A stretch of 64,000 nucleotides of DNA from Dehalococcoidia bacterium (GTDB lineage Bacteria; Chloroflexota; Dehalococcoidia; Lucifugimonadales; QGNO01). Of this stretch, positions 6,580 through 59,973 are shown one piece after another. The notes below the pieces were generated by a model that was given only the letters and a program-made list of their open reading frames with translations, did not search any database and was not told the DNA's origin. The stretch is taken from the NCBI GenBank assembly GCA_965197965.1, contig OZ240235.1:996666-1060665 (forward strand). The letters are read 5' to 3'. A program made the position numbers and the translations under genes. Within the stretch, counting starts at the first letter, position 1. Each line of letters opens with the position of its first letter.

Positions 6580-8204
6580 ATGGCGTAGAAGTCCTCGTGT
6601 TGTTCCGGTGGAATGCTGTCCAAGAGGATGTCTAGTATCTCTTCTTCGGTAGGTCTTCCGTCAACCTCTTGCGAATGGAGGTAAATCTCTCCCAAGGCTT
6701 TACCTAGAGAGTCTTCCCCCAAGACCTCCCAGAGGCGAAGCAGGAAGTAAGCGCCTAAGGAATAATGACATCCATGTAACCCGTCAAGTTCGTTCAGCTT
6801 CTGGATAGTACGTAAACCGAGGACGGAGCAGTCTCTCTCTACCTGTTCTTCGTATAGGGGTATCCGCTGGCTTTGAGTCTCCCTACCGACCTTGTATTCT
6901 ACGTACGGCCTCATGAAGGTCGCTGTCCCTTCTACCAACCAAAGAGGCAGATTTCCTCTGAAGAGATAGTGTCCGACCTCGTGCTGTACGTGTCCAATAC
7001 TTATGTTATCCCTCCTATCTGTGTAGTGGGGTGCGGTGAAGAAAGACCCGTAGTGAGCTGCCCTTATACCGTGGTCCTTATCAGGACCTGCTAGGGGAAT
7101 CACTAAGATAACGTCAGTAACAGGAAAGGGCACCTGGGTAAGCTCTTCTAGTTCCCGAACCGCATCCGTCATTGCTTCTATAACGTAGTCTCCACCCTGA
7201 GGAAAAGGGTCTGGTCTAATTGCCCAAAGGTTCACGTCTCCGGCGAGGGGCAGTGTGAGAACCGAGCGTCTCAAGACCAACGACTCCCTAATGTCATCAT
7301 GGAGTAGCCCGAATTGAGATACGTTTCTGCTCATTGCCAGAACGAAGAGACGCACCGCCTGCTCCTCTCTTTCAAAACCCTCCGTCTCCTCCAACAAGAT
7401 TCGAACAAGGGTAAGATCCTCAGAGGATAACTTCGCTAGTTGGTAGAGGAGATGCGCTTCGTTAACTGTTGACTCCTCTCCAATCGGAATATTGTCGAAG
7501 ACCTGCTCTACCAAAGCCCTATCTGTTTCTGCTGCCTTAGCCCAGAGCTCCGCAGTCCAGGCTTCCGTACCAGTCAACTCATCCTGCTGCCAAGCATAGC
7601 CTACGATTAAGGTTCCTGCTTTTGGAATGAGGTCTATGAGTTTCCTCAGTGCATGAATACCCATATTTTCAACTTCGGTAATTCCGTCTTGTACCCAGGG
7701 TAGGTCCACTATTTTAGTCGTCAATTCAGGATCAAGGCTATTGATGTGCAGCAACTGCCTTCTAGAGTTGGCGTGGAACTTGCCCACGTCCTCATCTTCA
7801 TACTCCTCTAGGGTTGTATCAAACCAAGGGAGAGCTGCTCGGAGATGTGCTTCTCCTAGTTCTTGTGGTGTCAGCGTCGGTGTTGGAGTCGGGCTAGGTA
7901 TTGGAGTAGCTGTAGGATATGGTGTTGGAGTCGGGCTAGGTATTGGAGTAGCTGTAGGATATGGTGTTGGAGTCGGACTGGGTGTTGGAGTAGCTGTAGG
8001 ATATGGTGTTGGAGTCGGACTGGGTGTTGAAGTAGCTGTAGGATATGATATCGCCGTAGGCGTCCCTGTTGGAATGGGGGTAGCAGTTAGGGTAGCTGTA
8101 GCACTAGGGGTGGGAGTAGGTGCAGCTGTTGGAGTACACGCAATGGCAAGAGCCGCTATTCCTAGCGGGGCGAGCTTGACCACGTGTGTGATACTCCTAT
8201 TCAC
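6522..8204 (-). CDS. Lipoprotein with Pro/Thr-rich repeat linker and C-terminal HEXXH (MA-clan, Peptidase_MA_2-like) domain
   Basis: Signal peptide plus lipobox (LAIAC). About 100 aa of [11 protein letters not shown] repeats. Near the C-terminus [22 protein letters not shown] gives HEXXH followed by a downstream Glu. Confidence 0.6.
7879..8046. repeat. Four tandem copies of a 42-bp unit inside the lipoprotein gene
   Basis: The unit ggtgttggagtcgggctaggtattggagtagctgtaggatat occurs at 7879, 7921, 7963 and 8005, with a few substitutions. It encodes PYPTATP(I/T)PSPTPT on the minus strand. Confidence 0.9.
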
Positions 8205-8746: not shown

Positions 8747-10255
8747 TCACCCTTTCTTCAAACTCTCCAGTTTCTGCCGCAGGACCTCATTGGCCAGCGC
8801 GGGGTTTGCCTGGCCCCTGGTTGCTTTCATCACTTGGCCCACCAGGAACTTGACCGCCGTCTCCTTGCCGCTCATGTAATCCTGGATTGCCTTGGGATTA
8901 TCGTCAATGGCTTGGTCTGCCACAGCCTGTATGGCGGAAGAATCGGAGATCTGCTCCAGCCCTCTCTCCCTCACAATATCCGCAGGCTCTTTTCCGGGCG
9001 ACTCGAACAAGGCGTCGAGCACCTCCGAGGCCATGTTGGTGCTCAGCCTACCCTCCTCCAGCATGGCGGCGACTTCAAAGAGGTGCCTGGCATCCAGCCT
9101 ATCGCCGCTTACCTCCTCGCCAACGCTGTTGAACAGTCGTGTAACATCGCCGAGGACTAGGTTGCACAAGACGTCGGCCCGCTTGCGCCTCGCTGTTTCA
9201 CCCATATCGCTTGCGTAGCTCATCGCAGAATCAAAATAGCTGCTGGCGGCGCTTGTACCCAGGGTGAGCTGACCGGCTTTGTACTCGCTCAGCCCCAGCT
9301 CATCGACATAGCGACGGAGTCTCGCATCCGGCAGCTCAGGCATCTTTGCCCTCACCTCGTCCACCCACTGACGGCTGATCTTCAAAGGCGTCAAGTCTGG
9401 CTCCGGGAAATAGCGGTAATCATGGGCATGCTCCTTAGAACGCTGCGATGCGGTGACCCCCCTATCTTCCAGCCAACCGCGCGTCTCCTGTTCAATCTGC
9501 CCTCCCTCTTCCAAGACCACAGCCTGGCGTTCCCATTCATACTGCAGGGCGCGGAACACGGAGCGAAAGCTGTTCATGTTCTTCACCTCTACCTTGGCGC
9601 CAAGCTCCGCACTGCCCTGGGGGCGGATGCTGATGTTGGCGTCGCAGCGGAAGCTGCCCTCCTCCATGTTGGCGGTGGACACACCGAGGTAACGCAGGAT
9701 GGTGCGCAGCTTCACCAGGTACTGCCGGGCCTCCTCCGGCGAGCGCAGGTCCGGTTCGCCCACTATCTCCATGAGGGGCACGCCGGCGCGGTTTACGTCC
9801 AACAGGCTGTAGGCCTCTCCCGTTTCGCCGGTGCGGTGGAACAGCTTGGCCACGTCTTCTTCCAGGTGGACGCGGTTGATGCGCACCTCCTTCTCGTAGC
9901 CGTCCACCGGGATGGACAGCCATCCGCCGCTGGCTATGGGCTGGTCGTACTGAGAGATCTGGTATCCCTTCATCAGGTCGGGATAGGGATAGTTCTTTCT
10001 ATCGAACTTGGTCTCCACCGCGATGCCGCAGTTCAGCGCTAGGCCGGTCATCATGACAAACTCCACGGCGCGTTTGTTTATCACGGGGAGGACACCGGGC
10101 ATGCCCAGGCAAACAGGGCATACCTCTGAGTTAGGCTCGGCGCCCTGATAACCGGCGCGGCAGGCGCAGAACATCTTGCTCTTGGTGAGGAGCTGAACGT
10201 GCACCTCGAGCCCAATTACCGCTTCGTATCCGGTCTCTATTGTGGTTGTCATCAT
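8747..10255 (-). CDS. gatB: Asp-tRNA(Asn)/Glu-tRNA(Gln) amidotransferase subunit B
   Basis: [14 protein letters not shown]-terminus, a GatB/YqeY C-terminal domain, and a full-length match in architecture. The ORF extends to a GTG at 10276; the ATG at 10255 is preferred. Confidence 0.93.
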
Positions 10256-17178: not shown

Positions 17179-18057
17179 TCAAGGGTATCTTTCCAACCAC
17201 CACTTGGCTATATCCGTGCGCCGCGCAAACCAGACGTCCGGTTTAGACGCGGCGTATTCCAGAAACCGCTGCAAGGCCACGGCGCGGGCGGGGCGGCCCA
17301 CCATGCGGCAGTGAAGGCCTATGGACATCATCTTGGGATGGGTGGCCCCTTCCTCGTAGAGCCTGTCGAAGGCGCTGCGCATTATCTCGTAGAAATCGCT
17401 GGGGCGGGCAATGAGTCCCTGGAAGAACTGGAAATCGTTCACCTCCAGAGTATAGGGGACAACCAGCCATTTCTTCCCCTTCACGTTGGTGTAGAAAGGC
17501 AGGTCGTCGGCGTAGGAGTTGCAGTCATACAGGAAGCCGCCCTCTTCAATCAACAGCTCACGGGTGTTCAGGCTGGGGGTTGAACGCGTGTACCAGCCCA
17601 GAGGGCGCTGACCGGTGGTCTTGATGAACGACTCCACCGCTTTGCGGATGAGCTCCCTTTCCGTATCGCGGTCCATCTGGTAGTACGTCTCCCACCTGTA
17701 GCCGTGCCCCACCAAATCATGGCCCCGCTTGATGATTTCAGGCCCAACATAGGGATTGCGTTCCAACGCCAGCGCGCAGCCGAAGAAGCTGGCCTTGACG
17801 TTGTACTCTTGCAGAATGTCGAAGACGCGCCATACCCCTGCCCTGCTTCCGTATTCAAAGGTCGACTCCATGTAAAGGTCGCGCTGGCCGGGGTCTACCA
17901 GTGACGGCACTTCTCCCTGGGGGTCTCCGTCCAGCACGGAGTACTCGGAGCCCTCTTCGTAGTTGACGACCACCGAAACCGCGATGCGGGCCCCGTTGGG
18001 CCATTCCACTCTGGGCGGGTTTGGGCCGTACCCAATGAAATCGCGTTCCGTGACCAT
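17179..18057 (-). CDS. polysaccharide deacetylase family protein (PuuE-type allantoinase-like)
   Basis: RDFIGYGPNPPRVEWPNGARIAVSVVVNYEEGSE N-terminus and a NodB-fold layout as in PuuE. Confidence 0.75.
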   Translation of the reverse strand: MVTERDFIGYGPNPPRVEWPNGARIAVSVVVNYEEGSEYSVLDGDPQGEVPSLVDPGQRDLYMESTFEYGSRAGVWRVFDILQEYNVKASFFGCALALERNPYVGPEIIKRGHDLVGHGYRWETYYQMDRDTERELIRKAVESFIKTTGQRPLGWYTRSTPSLNTRELLIEEGGFLYDCNSYADDLPFYTNVKGKKWLVVPYTLEVNDFQFFQGLIARPSDFYEIMRSAFDRLYEEGATHPKMMSIGLHCRMVGRPARAVALQRFLEYAASKPDVWFARRTDIAKWWLERYP

Positions 18058-18094
18058 AGCTCCTCCTCGTTATCGCGATGCGGATACATTACCT

Positions 18095-18172
18095 ACTCAC
18101 TCCCTTCGACAGGTTCAGGGTGAGCGGACGCTTTTCCCGCTCAAATAGTTCGACAAGCTCACCATGAGCGGG
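18095..18172. repeat. REP-like extragenic element, family 1 (second copy)
   Basis: ctcactcccttcgacaggttcagggtgagcgg ... ttcgacaagctcaccatgagcgg shares both modules with 12881-12950. Confidence 0.75.
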
Positions 18173-18209
18173 AAGATGCGCAAGCCTGGACGGCCTGTGA
18201 TTAGCCTGC

Positions 18210-19109
18210 CTAAGGCTGGGGTGGATATCTATCCAGCCACCAGCGAGCAATGTCTATCCTGCGGGCAAACCAGACGTTGGGCCGCGAAGTGGCGTATTTC
18301 AGGAACTGCTCAAGTACGGCGGCCCGCGCCGGCTTTCCCACTATACGGCAGTGCAGCCCTATGGACATCATCTTGGGGTGGGTTGCCCCTTCCTCGTAGA
18401 GCAGATCAAAGGTGTTGCGCATGGCATCGTAGAAATCGTTGGGGTTGGACATGCCTCCCCGCCAGTACTTAGTATCGTTCACCTCCAGCGAATAAGGCAC
18501 GACCAGCCAAGGCTTGCCGCCGGCGCTTGTGTAGAACGGCAGATCGTCCGCGTAGGAGTTGCAGTCGTATAAGAATCCGCCCTCCTCCACGACCAGATCC
18601 CTGGTGTTGACGCTGGGACCGTAGCGGGTATACCAGCCCAGGGGCCGTTGACCGGTTGTCCTGGTGATGGAGTCCACCGCTTTGCGGATCGCCTCGCGTT
18701 CCGCGTCGCGGTCCATATTGAAGTACTCCTCCCACCGGTAGCCGTGCCCCATCACCTCGTGCCCACCTTTCACGATCGCGGGGCCCACTTCAGGGTTGCG
18801 CTCCAAGGCCAGAGCGCATACGTAAAACGTGCTCTTGAGGTTAAGCCGGTGGAAAATGCGAAGAATCCGCCAGACCCCTGCCCTGCTTCCGTATTCGAAG
18901 AACGACTCGTTGGCTAGGTCGCGCTCTCCGGGAGGGACCGGCGACGGCACCTCTCCCATGCTCTCGCCCTCGGAGTCGCCGTCCAAAATCGAGTATTCCG
19001 CGCCCTCTTCGTAGTTGACCACCACGGATACGGCTATGCGAGCCTTACCTGGCCACTCTACTTGGGGCGGGCTGGCGCCATATCCTATGAAGTCGCGCTG
19101 ATTCATCAA
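18210..19109 (-). CDS. polysaccharide deacetylase family protein (PuuE-like), tandem paralogue
   Basis: Collinear with the 17179-18057 product, sharing blocks such as IAVSVVVNYEEG, GWYTR, GGFLYDCNSYADDLPFYT and ATHPKMMSIGLHCR. Confidence 0.75.
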   Translation of the reverse strand: MMNQRDFIGYGASPPQVEWPGKARIAVSVVVNYEEGAEYSILDGDSEGESMGEVPSPVPPGERDLANESFFEYGSRAGVWRILRIFHRLNLKSTFYVCALALERNPEVGPAIVKGGHEVMGHGYRWEEYFNMDRDAEREAIRKAVDSITRTTGQRPLGWYTRYGPSVNTRDLVVEEGGFLYDCNSYADDLPFYTSAGGKPWLVVPYSLEVNDTKYWRGGMSNPNDFYDAMRNTFDLLYEEGATHPKMMSIGLHCRIVGKPARAAVLEQFLKYATSRPNVWFARRIDIARWWLDRYPPQP

Positions 19110-33205: not shown

Positions 33206-33304
33206 GGCTTATTTTTTTGCCCTTCTTTAGACGGCTCACCGCCAACGGTTCCACGCGCCTTCCGCTTTCATGGAGAGCCTACATCTGGTACATTTGATGC
33301 GTCA

Positions 33305-33347
33305 CTGTAAAGGGAATGAGCTTATGCAAAGCTCATTCCCTTTACAG
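33305..33347 (+). other. Perfect 18-bp inverted repeat (hairpin) overlapping the rpsA -35 box
   Basis: ctgtaaagggaatgagct (33305-33322) and agctcattccctttacag (33330-33347) with a 7-nt loop and no mismatches. Confidence 0.9.
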
Positions 33348-33370
33348 CTAAGAAAGCGTCTGGCTATAAT
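33342..33370 (+). promoter_or_regulatory. Promoter candidate for rpsA
   Basis: TTACAG (33342-33347), a 17-nt spacer, then TATAAT (33365-33370). Confidence 0.55.
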
Positions 33371-47318: not shown

Positions 47319-48392
47319 TTAGGAAAGAGCATAGGTGTCTGCACCTGCGGCCAGTGCCTGGTAAGCCTCGGACAACAGAGCATCGGTCTCTTCCCAGCCG
47401 ACGCAAGGGTCCGTGATAGAGACGCCGTACTCCAGTTTGGAAGGGTCCCCTTCGTCAAGCTTCTGACTGCTGGCGAATAGATTGCTTTCCAACATCATGC
47501 CCACTACACCTGTATTTCCCGATAAGCGCTGCTGGAGAACGTCTTGGAAGGCAACCGACTCAAGCGCGTAGTCCTTGTTGGAGTTGGCGTGGGAGCAGTC
47601 CACGAGCAGCCTGGCGGGCACGCCGGCCTGCTCAAGCAAAGACGTGGCCCTGGCCACAGAGGCGGCATCGTAGTTTGTCCCGGGAGTGCCGCCGCGCAGG
47701 ACTATGTGGCAGTTGGGATTTCCCTGCGTCATCACTATGGAGGCATAGCCTTCGCCGTCCACTCCGAGAAAAGCGTGCCGGGCGCGGGCGGCAACCACTC
47801 CGTCAACGGCGAGTTGGATGCTGCCGCCGGTGCCGTTCTTGAAGCCCACAGGCATGCTCAAACCGCTTGCCATCTGGCGATGTGTCTGGCTCTCCGCGGT
47901 ACGCGCGCCAATAGCAGCCCACGAAACCAAGTCCGCTATGTACTGGGGAGTGATGGGGTCCACGAACTCGGTGGCGGAAAGCAGACCTATCTCGGCGATG
48001 TTCAGCAGGAATTCCCTCGCCATATACAGCCCATGCTCCAAGTCGAAGCTGCCGTTCAGATGAGGATCGTAGATAAGGCCCTTCCAGCCAACGGTAGTAC
48101 GGGGCTTTTCAAAGTAGACGCGCATTACAACGAGCATACGGTCGCTGTACCTGTCCGCGATCTGCTTGAGCCTATGCGCATAATCCAGGCCGGCCTTTGT
48201 ATCGTGGATGGAGCAGGGGCCGGAGATGAGCAGTAAGCGATCATCCTCTCCCGAAAGAATGGCGGCAATCTCCTCTCTTCCTTTCACCACCAGTTGCGCC
48301 ACCGAGTCAGGAGTGGGAAGGCGGGTTAGGTACTCCGCCGGTGAGGGCAGTCTTTGTATGCTGGAGACGTTTATGTTCTGCAGTTGGCCCAT
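47319..48392 (-). CDS. aroG: 3-deoxy-7-phosphoheptulonate (DAHP) synthase, class I
   Basis: GPCSIHD, KPRTTVGWKGL and IGARTAESQTHRQMASG signatures of AroF/G/H-type enzymes. Confidence 0.92.
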   Translation of the reverse strand: MGQLQNINVSSIQRLPSPAEYLTRLPTPDSVAQLVVKGREEIAAILSGEDDRLLLISGPCSIHDTKAGLDYAHRLKQIADRYSDRMLVVMRVYFEKPRTTVGWKGLIYDPHLNGSFDLEHGLYMAREFLLNIAEIGLLSATEFVDPITPQYIADLVSWAAIGARTAESQTHRQMASGLSMPVGFKNGTGGSIQLAVDGVVAARARHAFLGVDGEGYASIVMTQGNPNCHIVLRGGTPGTNYDAASVARATSLLEQAGVPARLLVDCSHANSNKDYALESVAFQDVLQQRLSGNTGVVGMMLESNLFASSQKLDEGDPSKLEYGVSITDPCVGWEETDALLSEAYQALAAGADTYALS

Positions 48393-48444: not shown

Positions 48445-48604
48445 CTTTGATTTGACTCTGCTGTGTACTAAACAGCTACCCTCCCCGTCCGGGCTTTGTA
48501 AGTAAACTCAAAATAGTAGGGAAGGTATGCTATTGACCTGCTCATGACGGGTCATATTATTGGCCGGTTTCATGAAACTGTCAAGGGCGTGCAGGATCAA
48601 GGGG

Positions 48605-54025: not shown

Positions 54026-54700
54026 TCAAGCTCCCACTCCTTGCGATGCGCCGGGCTGCTCCTCCAGCATCCTCCGCAGCCTCTCTCTTGCCTGCGCTGT
54101 CTGGCCGCTCTGAAACATGGACAAAAGCTCATCATCCATGCACTCCTGCCAGCGGTCGGGATCCGGTCGTAGGCCCTTTGCCCGCACTTCAGTCCGCACG
54201 TCGGCGAGAACGTCCACCATATCCGCCCACTGCAGGCACAGGCAGAGGTCAGGATCGGACATCATCTCTCTGAGACGGCGAGCCAGAGCCGGACTGAGGC
54301 CCGCGGTCGAGATGGCGCACTGCACTTCGCCGTTCTGCCCTCTTCTGGCTATCGCGGGGGCTATGAAGCTGCACAGCTGAGGCCTATCCACCACGTTGAG
54401 CAAGATGCCGCGGCTATGGGCCTCTTGGGCAACCCTTGTGTACTCATCCTCGTCGAGGTTCTCCGATACAACCAGGAACGCCCCTTCCAGGTCGCCCTGC
54501 CGGTATTCCCGGCGCTTCCACTCTATGAGGCCGCGGCCGGACAGGTCTTGAAGCACAACGGAGACCTCTGGATTGATCAGAGTCACCCGCGCGCCGTGTT
54601 CCAAGAGCCCTTGCACTTTGCGCTCGGCCTCGTGCTCTCCGCCAACCACTACGCAGTGGCGTCCGTTCAAGTCTAGGTAAACTGGATAGTACGCAGGCAT
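54026..54700 (-). CDS. precorrin-2 dehydrogenase / sirohydrochlorin ferrochelatase (SirC / CysG N-terminal type)
   Basis: YPVYLDLNGRHCVVVGGGEHEA-type Rossmann start (here VVVGGEHEAERK), 224 aa, at the head of the hem cluster. Confidence 0.78.
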   Translation of the reverse strand: MPAYYPVYLDLNGRHCVVVGGEHEAERKVQGLLEHGARVTLINPEVSVVLQDLSGRGLIEWKRREYRQGDLEGAFLVVSENLDEDEYTRVAQEAHSRGILLNVVDRPQLCSFIAPAIARRGQNGEVQCAISTAGLSPALARRLREMMSDPDLCLCLQWADMVDVLADVRTEVRAKGLRPDPDRWQECMDDELLSMFQSGQTAQARERLRRMLEEQPGASQGVGA

Positions 54701-54758
54701 GGCCTCATTTTACTCCGCAACTCCTGGACTGTGTACCTAACTTCACCCTCTTATATTA

Positions 54759-54866
54759 GCGGTAGCTGTAAAGTACCGATAGCCTCGTCTCGCCCGACTG
54801 GAAATCCATTCCCACTATTACAGCGTACTTCATGTATAATCTCCCTACCCACCCGGCGAGGACGTC
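54759..54866 (+). promoter_or_regulatory. Repeated promoter/operator module, copy A
   Basis: gcggtagctgtaaagta..., inverted repeat GGAAAT-CC-ATTCCC (54800-54813), TG-TATAAT (54833-54840), then ...ggcgaggacgtcATG. About 90% identical to copy B. Confidence 0.6.
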
Positions 54867-56381
54867 ATGATAAAGCAGACAACCCAATTGCTGGTACTGG
54901 GAACGGTTGCGCTAGTCCTGGCGTCTGCAATTTCCGGCTGCACCGGGATGCCTGAACCGACGCCATCGCCCACGCCAACTCTGACGGCTACGCCCACACC
55001 GACACCAACCCCGACGCCTACAGCCACGCCGAATCTTCAAGACCAGCTAGTTCAGCAGTTTTTGTCTACTAGACCTACGCCTGCTGCTAGAGCTACGGCT
55101 GTTGCTAGAGCTAAGGCTGCTAGAGCTACGGCTACAGCACTGACGCCTACACCCACTTTTATACCCGTGCCGACGCCTACACCCAAGCCCGCACCTACGC
55201 CGACACCATACCCACCGAACGGCGACGGCGGTCCACCGTCCGGTCCGTGTGGGCCAATATCTCACTTGCAAGTGTTGGATAGGATCGACCACTTTATCTA
55301 CTGGACTCCAGATGGCCCCCGCCTGATATTTGATCACGGAACGCTGGTGATGATGGTGAACAACGACGGTTCCGGGCTGCGAGCCGTCGTAGATGCCAAC
55401 CCGGGTTCCCCCCATTTTCCCGGTGGCTTCCACGCCGATCTATCGCCGGATGGATCGCGCATCGCCTACACCTCATGCCAGTATAAAACGGAGGATAGGA
55501 CGTACAACTACGAGATCGCGTCGGTGGCCATCGACGGCTCGGACCGTAGGCGTCTTACCGAGGACCGTTACATGGACCATTACCCGGCATGGTCTCCCGA
55601 TGGAAGAAGCATAGCCTTCATAAGAGGTAGAGGCTACAAACCTGTTTTCGGCACGCTTCGAGTCATGCTGGAGGATGGTTCAGACCAAAAGGATCTTATG
55701 CTGAGAGACCCGAGAGACCGTAGGTCCTCTCTTGATACCGAACCCACAGCCCCGATATGGTCTCCCGACGGCCAGCAACTGGCTTTCGTTGCTTACGAGG
55801 CTACTTATGTGGGGGGGATTCTTTACACAGTTCGCGCTGACGGCTCTGAACTGTTGGAGATCTCGGAGACGGCAAGCCCACCCTCTTGGTCTCCGGACGG
55901 GAGCCGCCTGGCGTTTGCCAAGCTCGACGGAGACGACGTGGTGCTCTACACCGTCAAGCCCGACGGCTCCGACCCCCGAGCTATCACCAGGATAACGGAT
56001 CGAGGGACGTTTCAGGACTCACGGCGTTTCTACGACATCTGGATACCCACCCTGGCGTGGTCACCTGAGGGTTCTCACATCATGTTCGGCTGTGAGGCAC
56101 GGATCTGCGTGGTTGACCTCGACGGCGTCTTAGTTGGTGAATCGCCCATCGAGGAGGCGCTATGGGAGCCTGACGGGTTTGAGCAGGCATTCGTGAATCC
56201 CCGACCTCAGTCGGTTGGTGCCTGGTCTCCCGACAGCTCCAGGATAGCCGTGCGCGTTCCTATCGGTTCTCACTCGGACCCCGGAGGTCGGAATCCGGTG
56301 GTCTACACCATGGATCCGAACGGCGGCAACGTGAGGGTACTGGTGCGGACCAACAAGCTCCGTGAGGTGCAGGTCCCATGA
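54867..56381 (+). CDS. Lipoprotein with PT-rich linker and TolB-like (PD40/WD40-like) beta-propeller
   Basis: Signal plus lipobox (LASAISGC), PTPSPTPT linker, and repeated WSPDG/LSPDG propeller blades. Confidence 0.75.
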   Translation: MIKQTTQLLVLGTVALVLASAISGCTGMPEPTPSPTPTLTATPTPTPTPTPTATPNLQDQLVQQFLSTRPTPAARATAVARAKAARATATALTPTPTFIPVPTPTPKPAPTPTPYPPNGDGGPPSGPCGPISHLQVLDRIDHFIYWTPDGPRLIFDHGTLVMMVNNDGSGLRAVVDANPGSPHFPGGFHADLSPDGSRIAYTSCQYKTEDRTYNYEIASVAIDGSDRRRLTEDRYMDHYPAWSPDGRSIAFIRGRGYKPVFGTLRVMLEDGSDQKDLMLRDPRDRRSSLDTEPTAPIWSPDGQQLAFVAYEATYVGGILYTVRADGSELLEISETASPPSWSPDGSRLAFAKLDGDDVVLYTVKPDGSDPRAITRITDRGTFQDSRRFYDIWIPTLAWSPEGSHIMFGCEARICVVDLDGVLVGESPIEEALWEPDGFEQAFVNPRPQSVGAWSPDSSRIAVRVPIGSHSDPGGRNPVVYTMDPNGGNVRVLVRTNKLREVQVP

Positions 56382-56420
56382 ACAGTAGATTTGTGCGGCA
56401 TCATTGGCTATTGGCGCTGG

Positions 56421-56529
56421 GCGCTAGCTGTAAAGTACCTGGTAGCCTCGTCCCGTCTGGCTGGGAATCCATTCCCGCTATTGGAGCGTACTCCATGTAT
56501 AATCTCCCTGCCCACCCGGCGAGGACGTC
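56421..56529 (+). promoter_or_regulatory. Repeated promoter/operator module, copy B
   Basis: gcgctagctgtaaagta..., perfect inverted repeat GGGAAT-CC-ATTCCC (56463-56476), TATAAT (56498-56503), then ggcgaggacgtcATG. Confidence 0.6.
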
Positions 56530-57939
56530 ATGATAAAGCAGACAACCCAATTGCTGGTACTGGGAGCGGTTGCGCTGGTCCTGGCGTCTGCTTCCGGCTG
56601 CACAGGGATGCCTGAACCGACGCCATCGCCCACGCCAACCCTGACGGCTACGGCCGTACCCGTACCGACCGCCACGCCTTCGCCATCGCCGACCACTATG
56701 GCAACCCCCATGCCCATACCGACGCCCACGCCATCACCCACGCCCTTCATTGTGGGGGAACCGGTCGACCCGTGTGGTCCTCATTTTTACGGGTACTACG
56801 GAAATTATGCAAACTTACACGAGCATTTCATTCATTGGGCAGAGGGGGGCACAAGCCTGTTGTTCGACCATGACGATTTGATCTTGGTTTTGGACATCGC
56901 AGGCGCTCAAGTAAGAGAACTTGCTGATGTAGATGTAAACGATAAATTCGCATACGGGTTCTACGCCGACGTATCGCCGGACGGCTCTCGGGTCGTCTAT
57001 TCCACCTGTGAATACATGCCCGATGAGCCAGAACCGGAAATAGGCAAGTATTCCGAGGGTTACGAGATCGCCTCAGTGAACATGGACGGCACCGACAGGA
57101 AGCGACTGACGAAGAACGAACGTTTCGATCACTATCCTGTCTGGTCACCGAATGGGACGCAGGTCGCCACAGTTACACATGCATATATGGGTATTAGTTT
57201 CAAAGAGTCTGATCTTGAGGATTATGCGCTAACATCGTGGGATGCCCTCTTTATGAGACTAGTCATCAGGTCTGCAGATGCACCGGCGGAATGGCAACCG
57301 CTTTCCCTGACCAGCAGGGTTGCCCTGTACCCTCCGGTCTGGTCGCCTGACGGTCAGCACTTGGCGTTCATTGCGAATGAGGGAGAGTTTCTTCCTTACG
57401 ACGACATTCGCAGGCTCTACATCATTGATTCCGATGGATCAGACCTGATCCGGATAGGAGAGACCACGGCGTCCGCCACGTGGTCCCCGGACGGCAAGGA
57501 GTTGGCCTTCGCCTCGATTGAGGGCGAGACGCCCATAATCTACGCGGTCAGACCCGACGGCACAGGCATACGCACGATCTGGCGTGGTGAGCCCAACAAC
57601 CCCGTCACGTCTATCTCACGGGTCTCACAGGTGTCCTGGTCGCCCGATGGGTCCGAGTTGCTCTTTCTTGCCGGCGAAGTATATTTCCTCAACGAAGGAT
57701 ATCTTGCCGACGAAGCATATCTTGTGCAGTCGGACGGCACGGACCTGCGACGTTTGGCCCCCGGCATTCCAAGTGCCCGGGCCGCATGGTCACCAGACGG
57801 ATCAAGGATAGCAATCTACCAACCGGGTGAACATATCGTCACCATATCTCGTGATGGAACGGACGTGAGAGAGTTGCTAAAGGGAGATGCCATTAGCAAT
57901 CTCCTCACGCTGAACCCGGAAGAGGCGGTGAGTCCATGA
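56530..57939 (+). CDS. Lipoprotein with PT-rich linker and TolB-like beta-propeller (paralogue)
   Basis: The first ~40 codons are nearly identical to the 54867 gene ([39 protein letters not shown]). WSPDG/WSPNG repeats follow. Confidence 0.75.
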   Translation: MIKQTTQLLVLGAVALVLASASGCTGMPEPTPSPTPTLTATAVPVPTATPSPSPTTMATPMPIPTPTPSPTPFIVGEPVDPCGPHFYGYYGNYANLHEHFIHWAEGGTSLLFDHDDLILVLDIAGAQVRELADVDVNDKFAYGFYADVSPDGSRVVYSTCEYMPDEPEPEIGKYSEGYEIASVNMDGTDRKRLTKNERFDHYPVWSPNGTQVATVTHAYMGISFKESDLEDYALTSWDALFMRLVIRSADAPAEWQPLSLTSRVALYPPVWSPDGQHLAFIANEGEFLPYDDIRRLYIIDSDGSDLIRIGETTASATWSPDGKELAFASIEGETPIIYAVRPDGTGIRTIWRGEPNNPVTSISRVSQVSWSPDGSELLFLAGEVYFLNEGYLADEAYLVQSDGTDLRRLAPGIPSARAAWSPDGSRIAIYQPGEHIVTISRDGTDVRELLKGDAISNLLTLNPEEAVSP

Positions 57940-57965
57940 GCAGCCATGTCTGGAGGTCGCGGTGG

Positions 57966-58063
57966 GCGGTAGCTGTAAAGTATCTGTTAGCCTCCTGGGA
58001 ATCCCCACCCATTGCGGTGCGCTTCCATGTATAATCCCCCCTACCCAAACCAGCGAGGACGCC
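57966..58063 (+). promoter_or_regulatory. Repeated promoter/operator module, copy C (diverged)
   Basis: gcggtagctgtaaagta..., half-site GGGAAT-CC-CCACCC, TATAAT (58030-58035), then agcgaggacgccATGATAAAGCA. Confidence 0.5.
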
Positions 58064-59146
58064 ATGATAAAGCAAGACCGCTTGATAAATACATTCTGCG
58101 ACCTTGTGCAGATAGACAGCCCATCCGGAGAAGAGGAAGAGGTGGCCCAAGACCTCACGCGGCGTCTCAGCGACCTCGGCTTCAGCATAGAGCGAGACTC
58201 CTACGGCAATCTGATAGCCTCTGAGGAAGGCGACGAGCCACTGCTGGTATCGGCTCACATGGACACCGTCGAGCCGGGCCGCGGCATAAAGCCACAGGTC
58301 CTGGATGACCGCATCGTCTCCGACGGCGCCACCATCCTCGGCGGCGACTGCAAGGCCGGTGTCGCCGCCATACTGGAAGCATTGGAGTCGCTGCACGAGG
58401 ACGGCACGGAGCGTGTCCCCGTACAGCTTGTCTTCACCCGCGAGGAGGAGCTTGGCCTAGTGGGCGCTCGCAATCTCGACATATCGCTGGTCAAGGCCAA
58501 ACGCGGTGTCGTCTTCGACGGCAACGGCCCGCCCAGCAAGGTGACCAGCGCCAGCTCCACCAACGTCATCTTCACCGTGAACGTTACCGGCCGCTCCGCA
58601 CACGCCGGCGTAGAGCCGGAGAAGGGTCTGTCCGCCATCCGCATAGCCGCCGAAATCATCACCGGCCTGCGCCAGGGCCGCCTCGATGATGAGACCACAA
58701 TCAACGTAGGCGTCGTCTCCGGCGGTTCGGTGCGCAACGCCGTGCCGGAAGATGCCTCGTTCATCGGCGAGTTCCGCAGCCGCAACATAGAATCCCTGGA
58801 GCTGGTGCGCCGTGAAATCAGCGAAGTGTTGGAACAGGCGCGCGGCAAGTATCCAGAGGCCGTCATAGAAGAGACCATGAACGTAGCGTACGAGATGTAC
58901 CGGCTGGGCATGGACAACCCGATGCTGCTGAAGGTGTCGCGCATACTTGAGGGCATGGGCAAGACGCCGCAGGTTGTCCCCTCCGGTGGCGGCACGGACG
59001 GCAACGTATTCAACAAACACGGCTTAAGCTGCGTTGTCGTCGGCATGTCCACCCAGGACATGCATACCGTGAGAGAATACGTGCCCATCGCTGACCTGAC
59101 CGACACCGCCCGCTTCTGCCAGGCGTTGCTTCTGGACAAGGAGTAG
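58064..59146 (+). CDS. M20 family metallopeptidase (peptidase T/tripeptidase-like)
   Basis: LVQIDSPSGEEEEV, SAHMDTV, GGDCKAG and REEELGLVGA metal-ligand segments. The start is at ATG 58064 (MIKQ); the ORF-track extension is upstream noise. Confidence 0.82.
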   Translation: MIKQDRLINTFCDLVQIDSPSGEEEEVAQDLTRRLSDLGFSIERDSYGNLIASEEGDEPLLVSAHMDTVEPGRGIKPQVLDDRIVSDGATILGGDCKAGVAAILEALESLHEDGTERVPVQLVFTREEELGLVGARNLDISLVKAKRGVVFDGNGPPSKVTSASSTNVIFTVNVTGRSAHAGVEPEKGLSAIRIAAEIITGLRQGRLDDETTINVGVVSGGSVRNAVPEDASFIGEFRSRNIESLELVRREISEVLEQARGKYPEAVIEETMNVAYEMYRLGMDNPMLLKVSRILEGMGKTPQVVPSGGGTDGNVFNKHGLSCVVVGMSTQDMHTVREYVPIADLTDTARFCQALLLDKE

Positions 59147-59148
59147 GC

Positions 59149-59973
59149 GTGAATGACTTTGTCTATCTCATTCACTGGAACCAGGACGAGGCCAGGGAGA
59201 GAGCGCAACTCATAGAAGCCGCCGGTTACCGGGTGGACGCCTCGCCCTTCTCCTCCGACTCCCTACGCCACCTGAGGGATAACCCACCGGCCGCCGTTGT
59301 GATAGACCTGTCCCGCCTGCCCTCGCATGGCCGCGAGGTAGCAATGGCGTTGCGGCAGTACAAGAGCACGCGCGCCGTGCCCATCATCTTTGTTGACGGC
59401 CAGCCCGACAAAGTAGAGCGAGTCAAAGAGCTTCTCCCTGATGCAAAGTACGCTGTATGGCAAGGCATAGGCCCCGCCATTCAAGAAACCATCGACTCTC
59501 CTCCTTCTGATCCGGTGCAGCCCCGGAGTGTCTTCGATGCTTATGCGGGCACTCCACTCTTCAAAAAGCTGGGCATCAAAGACGGCTCTCGCGTATCCCT
59601 TGTCGATGCTCCTCAACGGTTTGAATCCAAGCTAGGCGACTTACCGGAAGGCGTTCTGCTGCAAAGGAATGGAAACACCCCTAGCGATCTGATCCTTTGG
59701 TTCGTCACCTCCAGCGAATACCTGCAAAACCATATCCATTCCATGCGCCGCTCCATTGGAAAGGACGGGCTGTGGGTCATCTGGCCCAAGAAGACCTCAG
59801 ATATTCAAACGGATCTGAGCCAGGTGATCGTACGCAGGATAGGCATGGACGCCGGCCTGGTAGACTACAAGATAGCCTCTATAGATGAGACTTGGTCAGG
59901 CCTGCGATTCACACTGAAGAAGCGGAGAGAGCCACCCCAAAAGAGGCTTCAGGCAGCGTCACTTTCTCCGTAA
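59149..59973 (+). CDS. Receiver-like N-terminal domain fused to a DUF3052-like C-terminal domain
   Basis: The N-terminus has a CheY-like beta-alpha pattern with VVIDLS but no acidic pair at the start. The C-terminal LGIKDGSRVSLVDAP...WVIWPKK...VDYKIASIDETWSGLRF resembles DUF3052. Confidence 0.45.
   Translation: MNDFVYLIHWNQDEARERAQLIEAAGYRVDASPFSSDSLRHLRDNPPAAVVIDLSRLPSHGREVAMALRQYKSTRAVPIIFVDGQPDKVERVKELLPDAKYAVWQGIGPAIQETIDSPPSDPVQPRSVFDAYAGTPLFKKLGIKDGSRVSLVDAPQRFESKLGDLPEGVLLQRNGNTPSDLILWFVTSSEYLQNHIHSMRRSIGKDGLWVIWPKKTSDIQTDLSQVIVRRIGMDAGLVDYKIASIDETWSGLRFTLKKRREPPQKRLQAASLSP

What the first reader, a model, noticed from the sequence alone, without database searches (positions are those of the whole stretch)
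54759..58075. A roughly 100-bp promoter/operator module plus the first four codons (MIKQ) is present three times before three consecutive genes, one of them unrelated
Copies at 54759-54878, 56421-56541 and 57966-58075 share several parts:
- gc(g/c)(g/t)tagctgtaaagta.
- A GGGAAT-CC-ATTCCC dyad: perfect in copy B, one mismatch in A, one half-site in C.
- TG-TATAAT about 26-28 nt before the ATG.
- (g/a)gcgaggacg(t/c)cATGATAAAGCA.

The dyad sits where a -35 box would be, which is the position of a repressor or class II activator site. Genes A and B are paralogous TolB-like lipoproteins. Gene C is an M20 peptidase that is cytoplasmic by sequence, yet it carries the same module and the same MIKQ start. 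This implies the module itself was copied or converted as a unit. The result is a putative three-gene regulon of unknown regulator that links surface propeller proteins with a tripeptidase.
Basis: partly seen in the sequence, partly recalled or inferred. Interest (0 to 1): 0.62.

Follow-up and report, generated by a model that had tools for sequence, protein, structure and literature searches.

The report
Peptidase promoter copied onto swappable lipoprotein genes
The promoter, ribosome site and first four codons of a housekeeping peptidase gene were duplicated and fused to an export signal, forming a fixed "head" behind which related sponge-associated bacteria carry different surface-protein genes, or none.

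Summary
The three copies are real and far above chance (z = 14; z = 8 without the -10 and ribosome-site parts). Three related Dehalococcoidia genomes carry the module once. There it lies between a sirohaem-synthase-like gene and a PepT-like M20 peptidase gene that starts MIKQDRL. That start is the normal N-terminus of the peptidase family, so module and MIKQ are native to the peptidase gene.

In this genome, and in two other metagenome assemblies, a copy of the module plus MIKQ is fused to a lipoprotein signal peptide and a Pro/Thr linker. Behind this constant head sit different bodies:
- two unrelated PD40 propellers here;
- a third propeller in one relative;
- an FN3/cadherin/LRR protein in another.

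Body ends show microhomology joints, and gene A dragged in the first 47 nt of a neighbouring adhesin gene. Occupied and empty sites are mixed in the flank tree, so the insert was gained once and then lost or moved.

The module is not a dispersed repeat. It matches no Rfam family and shows no conserved RNA fold. Promoter function and co-regulation are inferred only, because no RNA data exist. A 14-nt box and a GGGAATCC(N)TTCCC near-dyad are conserved.

The closest analogue is the Borrelia Erp (upstream homology box) lipoprotein family.

The parts
54026..54700 (-). Sirohaem-synthase-like gene (NAD_binding_7 + Sirohm_synth_M), transcribed divergently. It is the ancestral left neighbour of the module.
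   Evidence: Pfam. It has the same position in L001, L003, L005, L011 and L012.
54759..54866 (+). Module copy A, at the ancestral position, lipoprotein type. Box 1 TAGCTGTAAAGTAC 54763-54776; dyad GGAAATCCATTCCC 54800-54813; TATAAT 54835-54840; GAGGA 54858-54862.
   Evidence: Its upstream flank is continuous with the single-copy flank of relatives.
54867..55016 (+). Constant coding head of gene A: MIKQ (from pepT), a lipoprotein signal peptide (..LASAISGC) and the start of the Pro/Thr linker.
   Evidence: 85-93% nt identity to the head of gene B, then a sharp drop after ~54997-55030. The same head occurs in P0192 (L011) and P0220 (L012).
55017..56381 (+). Body of gene A: a PD40 beta-propeller lipoprotein (whole gene 54867-56381, 504 aa).
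   Evidence: Pfam PD40 E = 3e-25. 88% nt identity to the native locus L009 (P0121, own signal peptide) over 55248-56424. About 97% identity to 2.7-2.9-kb Logan contigs of runs X4 and X6 from 55017 to 56424.
56378..56424 (+). Remnant of the first 47 nt of a giant LRR/cadherin adhesin gene (MNSRFVRHHWLLALG), dragged in with gene A. The donor homology ends at GCGC (56421-56424), where the module begins.
   Evidence: In L009 5390-5436 this sequence is the start of the next gene (1893 aa, LRR/cadherin/fn3). The X4/X6 contigs diverge exactly after 56424.
56421..56529 (+). Module copy B, lipoprotein type in its 3' half. Box 1 56425-56438; perfect dyad 56463-56476; TATAAT 56498-56503; GAGGA 56521-56525.
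   Evidence: Its 5' part (GCGC..CTGGTAGC) resembles the pepT-proximal copy of L012.
56530..57939 (+). Gene B: the same head (56530 to ~56641), then a PD40 propeller body of another subfamily. Its relatives are PD40+LRR proteins; the LRR part is absent here. The conserved C-terminal end is ..NPEEAVSP.
   Evidence: 74% nt identity to L010 (P0003).
57919..57965 (+). Conserved 3' end of the cassette plus the junction: the last codons (EEAVSP*), GCAGCCA.. and the joint to the module.
   Evidence: Homologous in L011, L012 and the native PD40-LRR gene in L010 (6044-6087). A variant junction without the TGGGCG insert occurs in X1.
57966..58063 (+). Module copy C, next to pepT, pepT type. Box 1 57970-57983; half-dyad GGGAATCC 57997-58004; TATAAT 58030-58035; GAGGA 58055-58059. 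It has a 12-nt deletion relative to the other copies.
58064..59146 (+). PepT-like M20 peptidase gene (360 aa), start MIKQDRL. It is the original owner of the module.
   Evidence: TIGR01883 277.2 bits against a cut-off of 274.25, with model position 1 at residue 6. Pfam M20 and M20_dimer. Family N-termini MI(N/D/K)x(D/E/K)R(L/I).
59149..59973 (+). Conserved 274-aa gene starting 3 nt after the pepT stop codon: weak receiver-like N-terminal half and weak DUF3052-like C-terminal half. It belongs to the ancestral operon. It is not shown to be a regulator.
   Evidence: The AlphaFold model was too poor to use (pLDDT 43.6).

Best explanation
The ~110-bp module is the native 5' control region of the PepT-like peptidase gene. 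It comprises upstream box 1, a GGGAATCC(N)TTCCC near-dyad, TATAAT, a GAGGA ribosome site and the start ATGATAAAGCA.

In one lineage of sponge-associated SAR202-type Dehalococcoidia this region was duplicated. The upstream copy, with the first four pepT codons, became fused in frame to a lipoprotein signal peptide and Pro/Thr linker. The result is a constant expression head (promoter, RBS, MIKQ, signal peptide, linker start). It supplies transcription, translation start and export to surface-protein bodies that arrive without their own 5' ends. pepT keeps the downstream copy.

Bodies are exchanged or added by recombination in the repetitive Pro/Thr-linker DNA on the left and by short microhomologies (GCG[G/C], CTGGGCG) on the right. 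The direct repeats of the module then allow unequal crossing-over. That explains the second head in this genome and the empty sites in close relatives.

Shown: the origin, the direction, the constant head with variable bodies, the junctions, and the mixed presence and absence.

Inferred: that the copies are active promoters, that the three genes respond to one regulator, and the order of events.
For: 1. Relatives L001, L003 and L005 have one module between the same two genes, with pepT starting MIKQDRL and no lipoprotein gene. Contigs from runs X4 and X6 show the same empty joint, 54729->57973.
2. Direction. The closest PepT-like representatives start MINRDRIV, MIDPDRLL, MINRKRLI, MINQDRLV, MIDQERLV and MIKHDRLL, and 41 of 150 start MI. 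None of 219 PD40 homologues starts MIKQ except those bearing the head, and the B-type family starts MLRAIASW.
3. The same head is at the same locus in L011 (PD40 body X, P0192) and L012 (FN3/cadherin/LRR body, P0220). Each has a second, pepT-type module before pepT. In 5.8 billion proteins only these carry the N-terminus.
4. The modules form two clades: lipoprotein type (81-94% identical) and pepT type (65-77%, with 93% between the close pair L001 and L003). AGCTGT.AAGTA, GAATC, TATAATC, GAGGA and ATGATAAA are invariant in 10 of 10 copies.
5. A/B identity is 85-93% up to ~54997, then at most ~60%.
6. Donor loci and breakpoints. The A body plus 47 nt of the next gene comes from an L009-type adhesin cluster, ending at 56424. 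The B 3' end matches the native PD40-LRR gene in L010.
7. The flank tree (win, L012, (L005, (L011, (L001, L003)))) has 99-100% support on its two deeper splits and 93% for L001+L003. Occupied and empty sites are mixed although the junctions are shared.
8. No terminator-like site lies on the + strand between the three genes.
Against: - No transcript data were available: no RNA runs hold the stretch. Promoter activity and start sites are unproven.
- There is no -35 match, and TG is one base too close for a canonical extended -10.
- The distance from dyad to -10 varies by 6 nt among copies.
Other module copies elsewhere in it are excluded only indirectly.
- The occupants in L011 and L012 each carry a frameshift. 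This may be sequencing error (L011 is a 4x long-read contig) or decay.
- The tree is unrooted and has six taxa.
- The order of events (tandem duplication then body replacement, or a second insertion) is not resolved.
Confidence: 0.75

Rival explanations
1. A true three-gene regulon. An unidentified DNA-binding protein recognises box 1 and/or the GGGAATCC-ATTCCC dyad in all three copies, so the surface lipoproteins and the peptidase are switched together. This can hold alongside the evolutionary explanation above.
For: - Box 1 (14 nt) and GGGAATCC are kept in all 10 copies, while the surrounding pepT-type DNA is only 65-77% identical.
- The near-dyad GGGAATCCCTTCCC is also present in the pepT-type copies of L011 and L012.
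- The dyad centre lies at about -40 in lipoprotein-type copies.
Against: - The perfect dyad occurs only in lipoprotein-type copies.
- Its distance to the -10 varies from 15 to 21 nt.
- Copy C lacks 12 nt between box 1 and the dyad.
- No regulator gene is adjacent; the conserved downstream gene shows no DNA-binding domain.
- Two 6-nt arms with a 2-nt spacer arise by chance in a ~100-nt stretch about 2% of the time.
- No expression data exist.
Confidence: 0.35
2. Reverse direction. The head (module plus MIKQ) is native to a lipoprotein gene, and the peptidase gene captured a copy. Genomes with a single module then lost the lipoprotein gene.
For: The flank tree mixes occupied and empty sites, so losses must be assumed in any case.
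Against: - MI(N/D/K)x(D/E)R(L/I) is the family-wide N-terminus of PepT-like proteins at 40-70% identity.
- No PD40, LRR or cadherin homologue outside this locus starts MIKQ.
- The TIGR01883 model starts at residue 6, directly after MIKQD.
Confidence: 0.05
3. Old tandem paralogues whose 5' ends are merely kept alike by gene conversion within the genome, with no exchange of bodies.
For: In the signal-peptide coding part, A and B are more alike (94%) than either is to L012 (84-88%).
Against: - Bodies at the same site differ in kind between genomes: three propeller subfamilies and a cadherin/LRR protein.
- The A body has a native locus elsewhere with its own signal peptide, and it brought a piece of its neighbour with it.
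- The head is as similar between genomes as within this one: win_A against L012_M1 is 94%.
Confidence: 0.1
4. The module is a transcribed RNA leader (a riboswitch or attenuator) rather than a promoter.
For: In copy A and in the single copies, a TATATT lies just 5' of box 1 and could start a ~100-nt leader.
Against: - No Rfam match even at E = 10.
- The RNAalifold consensus of 10 copies is -5.6 kcal/mol with 0 covarying pairs.
- Copies B and C lack that upstream TATATT.
- Indels fall in the middle of the module.
Confidence: 0.05

Closest known systems
Borrelia burgdorferi Erp (OspE/OspF/Elp) lipoprotein genes, the 'upstream homology box' family
   Same: - One conserved promoter/operator, leader peptide and first residues of the mature lipoprotein.
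- Behind it, bodies of independent origin that recombine.
- The genes occupy an allelic location (PMC10016077, read).
All three hold here.
   Different: - This locus is chromosomal, not on cp32 prophage plasmids.
- There are one to two heads per genome, not about ten.
- The head can be traced to the promoter and first four codons of the neighbouring housekeeping peptidase gene.
- The operator proteins and co-expression known for erp are unknown here.
- The organism is a sponge-associated Dehalococcoidia, not a pathogen.
Variable surface lipoprotein families of Mycoplasma (vsp, vlp, vpma) (from my own knowledge)
   Same: A highly conserved 5' non-coding region and prolipoprotein signal sequence is joined to divergent mature parts. 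The genes are clustered, and recombination changes what is expressed.
   Different: - No site-specific recombinase gene, inversion sites or poly-nucleotide switch tract was seen within about 5 kb.
- All copies here have the same orientation.
- Variation is seen between strains, not shown within a clone.
Promoter capture by duplication or deletion in experimental evolution, for example gene fusions in Pseudomonas fluorescens SBW25 (from my own knowledge)
   Same: A gene gains expression by becoming joined to the promoter and first codons of a neighbouring, unrelated gene.
   Different: Here the donor promoter was duplicated rather than lost. The donor gene stays intact, and the captured promoter then became a reusable head for several bodies.
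Eukaryote-like proteins (LRR, cadherin, FN3 and others) of sponge symbionts, including sponge Chloroflexi/SAR202 (PMC6306507)
   Same: The bodies carried by the head (LRR, cadherin, FN3) belong to classes that are expanded in sponge symbionts and thought to mediate contact with the host. The PD40 propellers here are fused to LRRs in their relatives.
   Different: That literature describes gene content. It does not describe a shared expression head or a swap site. PD40 propeller lipoproteins are not discussed there: 'TolB' has 0 hits in that paper.

Membership tests
Sigma-70-type promoter with extended -10 | -10 hexamer close to TATAAT | tested here: met
   A perfect TATAAT is present in 10 of 10 copies, 26-28 nt before the ATG.
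Sigma-70-type promoter with extended -10 | TG at -15/-14 (TGnTATAAT), or a -35 hexamer 16-18 nt upstream | tested here: not met
   TG abuts the hexamer (TGTATAAT), and L005 has TTATAAT. The consensus scan finds no -35/-10 pair at the modules.
Sigma-70-type promoter with extended -10 | Transcription start a few bases after the -10 | not testable with these tools
   No RNA runs hold the stretch. All runs found are contig sets of unknown or DNA type.
Shared promoter/leader/signal-peptide head families (Borrelia Erp/UHB type) | The same upstream DNA, leader peptide and first mature residues on genes with unrelated bodies | tested here: met
   The head is 85-94% identical on four bodies: PD40 A, PD40 B, PD40 X and FN3/cadherin/LRR.
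Shared promoter/leader/signal-peptide head families (Borrelia Erp/UHB type) | Allelic location, with bodies of independent origin that recombine | tested here: met
   The site is always between the sirohaem-synthase-like gene and pepT, in the window, L011 and L012. Donor loci L009 and L010 were identified.
Shared promoter/leader/signal-peptide head families (Borrelia Erp/UHB type) | Homology to the Borrelia sequences, or carriage on a prophage plasmid | tested here: not met
   The locus is chromosomal in a 2.55-Mb contig. The head derives from the local pepT promoter. This is an analogy, not membership.
Dispersed REP/MITE-type repeat | Many copies scattered without relation to gene starts | tested here: not met
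   - The window has 3 copies, all directly before start codons.
- Each of three relatives has one copy, including a complete 2.0-Mb chromosome.
- The only other hits in the genome and metagenome collections are chance matches in AT-rich Flavobacteria-type DNA.
Structured RNA leader or riboswitch | Rfam match, or a conserved fold with covariation | tested here: not met
   There are 0 Rfam matches at E up to 10. The consensus fold is -5.6 kcal/mol with 0 compensatory pairs in 10 sequences.
TolB (Tol-Pal system) | Score above the TIGR02800 equivalog cut-off | tested here: not met
   Scores are 86.8 and 69.3 bits against a cut-off of 343. These are PD40-repeat propeller lipoproteins, not TolB.
PepT-like peptidase (TIGR01883, M20) | Score above the curated cut-off, with M20 and dimerisation domains | tested here: met
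   The score is 277.2 bits against 274.25. PF01546 and PF07687 are both present.
Recombinase-driven phase-variable lipoprotein locus (Mycoplasma vsp/vpma type) | Adjacent site-specific recombinase and invertible or recombination sites | tested here: not met
   No recombinase lies among the neighbouring genes in the window, L011 or L012. The joints show microhomology rather than a fixed site.

The most novel reading that the evidence does not exclude
The duplicated pepT head is a working expression site for surface variation in sponge symbionts. Bodies of eukaryote-like surface proteins (PD40, LRR, cadherin) are copied in from adhesin clusters of the same or related strains. Entry uses homology in the Pro/Thr-linker DNA and short microhomologies. 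The flanking module repeats let the population add, multiply or delete cassettes without ever losing pepT expression. Under this reading a housekeeping promoter was recruited as the fixed part of a new, recombinase-free system of cassette exchange.
Probability: 0.3. Interest if true: 0.65.

Novelty: new variant of a known kind. Interest (0 to 1): 0.5.

Why it matters
Shared promoter and signal-peptide heads on variable surface lipoproteins are known from a few pathogens, but where such heads come from is rarely visible. Here every step can be read from sequence:
- a housekeeping gene's promoter and first four codons were duplicated;
- the copy was fused to an export signal;
- the head was then reused for at least four different surface-protein bodies in related, uncultured sponge-associated SAR202 bacteria;
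- donor loci and breakpoints are identified.

The locus gives a concrete example of how imported gene fragments that lack a promoter become expressed. It also shows how surface repertoires of symbionts may turn over. It offers a defined ~110-bp candidate promoter with two conserved boxes for a phylum with almost no promoter data.

Tried and rejected
- The metagenome scan with the box-1 pattern gave only chance hits in AT-rich DNA.
- Rfam gave nothing.
- An RNA consensus fold of 10 copies showed no structure.
- A search for RNA runs found none usable.
- Exact-protein look-ups of the window's pepT and sirohaem-synthase-like proteins found nothing. Look-ups with the L012 and L003 proteins returned only known arrangements.
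- The conserved 274-aa protein downstream of pepT was tested as a possible regulator. It gave weak receiver and DUF3052 hits only and no DNA-binding domain, and its AlphaFold model had pLDDT 43.6, so no fold search was run.
- A sigma-54 reading of TGGGAATCCCCTTGC fits L001 alone and was dropped.
- P0045 was considered as the orthologue of gene A and rejected at 32% identity.
- A box-1-like site at 48464-48480 lies between the stop codon of a histidine-phosphatase-family gene and a terminator-like hairpin, upstream of a DAHP synthase gene. I take it as chance.
- The signal peptide's own donor could not be identified; only generic similarity was found.
Full report
**Observation.**
- The 13-mer TAGCTGTAAAGTA, CATGTATAATC and GCGAGGACGYCATG each occur exactly only at these three places in 64 kb. 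Chance expectation is 0.4-1.4 even when mismatches are allowed.
- Against 1000 dinucleotide shuffles, A-C and B-C alignments score z = 14.
- With only the part 5' of the -10 box, so without the generic -10 and ribosome-site elements, they still score z ≈ 8.
- Logan contigs of an independent read set cross both internal junctions without a single difference.
- One detail needs correcting. TG abuts TATAAT, whereas the canonical form is TGnTATAAT, and there is no -35 match.

**The genes.**
- A (54867-56381) and B (56530-57939) are PD40-repeat beta-propeller lipoproteins with a lipobox and a Pro/Thr linker. They are not TolB: TIGR02800 scores 87 and 69 bits against a cut-off of 343.
- C (58064-59146) is a PepT-like M20 peptidase: TIGR01883 scores 277.2 against 274.25, and the model starts at residue 6.
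- A and B are 85-93% identical in DNA only from the module to about 54997. Beyond that, identity falls to at most ~60%, and the proteins are ~35% identical.
- B's closest relatives are PD40+LRR proteins (60-65% identity). A's are a different PD40 subfamily.

**The module belongs to the peptidase gene.** A pattern scan of one genome per prokaryote species found the module in three Dehalococcoidia MAGs: L001, L003 and L005, the last a complete 2.0-Mb chromosome.
- Each carries it once, in the divergent spacer between the sirohaem-synthase-like gene and a pepT-like gene that starts MIKQDRL. No lipoprotein gene is present.
- Contigs of runs X4 and X6 show the same empty joint, 54729->57973.
- The other hits in the genome and metagenome scans are chance matches in AT-rich Flavobacteria-type DNA. 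The module is therefore not a dispersed repeat, which answers the second refutation test.

**Direction of copying.** The 150 best representatives of the PepT-like family typically begin MINRDRIV, MIDPDRLL, MINQDRLV, MIDQERLV or MIKHDRLL, and 41 of them start MI. MIKQDRL is therefore an ordinary native N-terminus. None of 219 PD40 homologues starts MIKQ except those with the head, and B's family starts MLRAIASW. The lipoprotein genes took the module and four codons from pepT, not the reverse.

**A constant head with variable bodies.** Searching only residues 1-40 of gene A against 5.8 billion proteins found three proteins: gene B, P0192 and P0220. The last two lie at the same locus in two other metagenome assemblies.
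- In L011 the head carries a third kind of PD40 propeller.
- In L012 it carries an FN3/cadherin/LRR protein.
- In both, a second, pepT-type module follows and pepT starts MIKQDRL.
- The head (module 3' half, MIKQ, signal peptide, Cys, MPEPTPSPTP) is alignable in all four genes and decays inside the Pro/Thr linker about 125-135 nt after the ATG.
- The last codons (..EEAVSP*) and ~25 nt after them are also shared by gene B, L011 and L012. They match the native 3' end of PD40-LRR genes such as P0003 in L010.

**Two kinds of module.** Ten copies align into two clades.
- Lipoprotein type: win_A, win_B, L011_M1 and L012_M1, 81-94% identical.
- pepT type: L001, L003, L005, L011_M2, L012_M2 and win_C. 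These are 65-77% identical, apart from the close pair L001 and L003 at 93%.
- Invariant in all ten are AGCTGT.AAGTA (box 1), GAATC within GGGAATCC, TATAATC, GAGGA and ATGATAAA.
- The perfect dyad GGGAATCCATTCCC is a lipoprotein-type feature. The pepT-type copies of L011 and L012 have GGGAATCCCTTCCC, one change away.
- The distance from the dyad to the -10 varies from 15 to 21 nt. That tolerance suits a repressor site or a loosely positioned element better than a class II activator site.
- Ten copies give no conserved RNA fold and no covariation, and Rfam has no match.

**Where the bodies came from.**
- The body of A, with everything up to 56424, is 88% identical to L009. There the gene has its own signal peptide and sits in an adhesin cluster, directly before a 1893-aa LRR/cadherin/FN3 protein.
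- The window copy carries the first 47 nt of that neighbour (MNSRFVRHHWLLALG) as a remnant at 56378-56424.
- Contigs in X4 and X6 are ~97% identical from 55017 to 56424 and diverge exactly at both ends.
- In the window's own sample the A body has single-copy depth and no second variant.
- The right joints show microhomology. Donor ..CTGGGCGC meets module GCGCTAGCTG. Donor ..GTCGCGG meets module GCGGTAGCTG; this second joint is seen in its simple form in a co-occurring strain in X1.
- Module B is preceded by TGGGCG like module C. It has a 5' part like pepT-proximal copies and a 3' part of lipoprotein type. This suggests an unequal crossover between the two modules, followed by replacement of one body. 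That order of events is inference.

**History.** A tree of 3.2 kb of flanking genes gives (win, L012, (L005, (L011, (L001, L003)))), with 99-100% support on the two deeper splits and 93% for L001+L003. Occupied sites (win, L011, L012) and empty sites are thus mixed. The occupied ones nonetheless share the same fusion point and the same 3' junction. The simplest reading is one origin, followed by at least two losses through recombination between the direct repeats, or by spread through homologous recombination between strains.

**How it probably works.** Each copy offers TATAAT, a GAGGA ribosome site 4-5 nt before the ATG, and the start codon. The fused signal peptide adds export and lipid anchoring. 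No terminator-like site separates the three genes, so read-through from the first copy is also possible. Box 1 and the near-dyad are conserved beyond their surroundings and are candidate protein-binding sites. No regulator was identified. The conserved gene that starts 3 nt after the pepT stop has only weak receiver-like and DUF3052-like matches, and its model was unusable. No RNA data were available. Promoter activity and co-regulation therefore remain inferences.

**Comparison with known systems.** The closest known arrangement is the Borrelia Erp (upstream homology box) family. That family is described as descended from a single promoter/leader/localisation sequence joined to many independent body sequences at an allelic site (PMC10016077). 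The design is the same here. The sequences, the replicon and the organism are unrelated, and the head can be traced to a neighbouring housekeeping gene. Mycoplasma vsp/vlp families are similar in design but use recombinases or switch tracts, and none is seen here. The bodies belong to the eukaryote-like protein classes known from sponge symbionts (PMC6306507). Earlier notes of this scan list comparable heads in other genomes and a shared promoter cassette in an adhesin locus of this same genome. I did not test those.

**Verdict.** This is a new variant of a known kind. Interest is moderate: the origin of the head and the exchange of bodies are unusually well documented, but function is untested.

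Noticed in passing
window 59149-59973 (+): A 274-aa protein starts 3 nt after the pepT stop codon and is conserved after pepT in all five relatives (85-87% identity). It has a weak receiver-like N-terminal half and a weak DUF3052-like C-terminal half. No DNA-binding domain was found, and the AlphaFold model was poor (pLDDT 43.6).
   Followed up: partly
window 48464-48480 (-): GGTAGCTGTTTAGTACA resembles box 1 with 3 mismatches. It lies between the stop codon of a histidine-phosphatase-family gene and a terminator-like hairpin, upstream of a DAHP synthase gene (47319-48392, minus strand). It is probably chance.
   Followed up: partly
window 33300-33350 (-): A perfect 17-bp hairpin, ctgtaaagggaatgagc / gctcattccctttacag, with a 9-nt loop. 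It shares CTGTAAAG and GGGAAT words with the module. Its meaning is unknown.
   Followed up: no
window 7837-8143: A tandem array with alternating 18- and 24-nt spacing: 10 overlapping copies of a 121-nt unit.
   Followed up: no
window 17183-19097: Two ~1040-nt-spaced direct repeats, 300 nt and 134 nt long and 72-75% identical. They suggest tandem paralogous genes.
   Followed up: no
window 56391-56615 and 54731-54955 (+): Short ORFs of 74 aa run through modules B and A in another frame. The ORF through B begins within the adhesin-gene remnant. They are probably not genes.
   Followed up: no
runs X1 and X3, laid at window 56421: A co-occurring strain has the B-type 3' end joined to a non-deleted module without the TGGGCG insert (..GAGCAGCCACATCTGGAAGTC|GCG.TAGCTG). 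The structure of the locus is therefore polymorphic within one sample.
   Followed up: partly
L005 1266-2276: A 336-aa transposase-like ORF (my reading from its sequence; not searched) sits between the phosphoribosyltransferase gene and the MaoC-like gene in the empty-site relative. It is about 3 kb from pepT, and the window has nothing at that place.
   Followed up: no
L011 ~9040-9110 and L012 ~7170-7220: Each occupant gene in the two relatives has one frameshift. This is either sequencing error (L011 is a 4x long-read contig) or decay of the cassette gene.
   Followed up: partly
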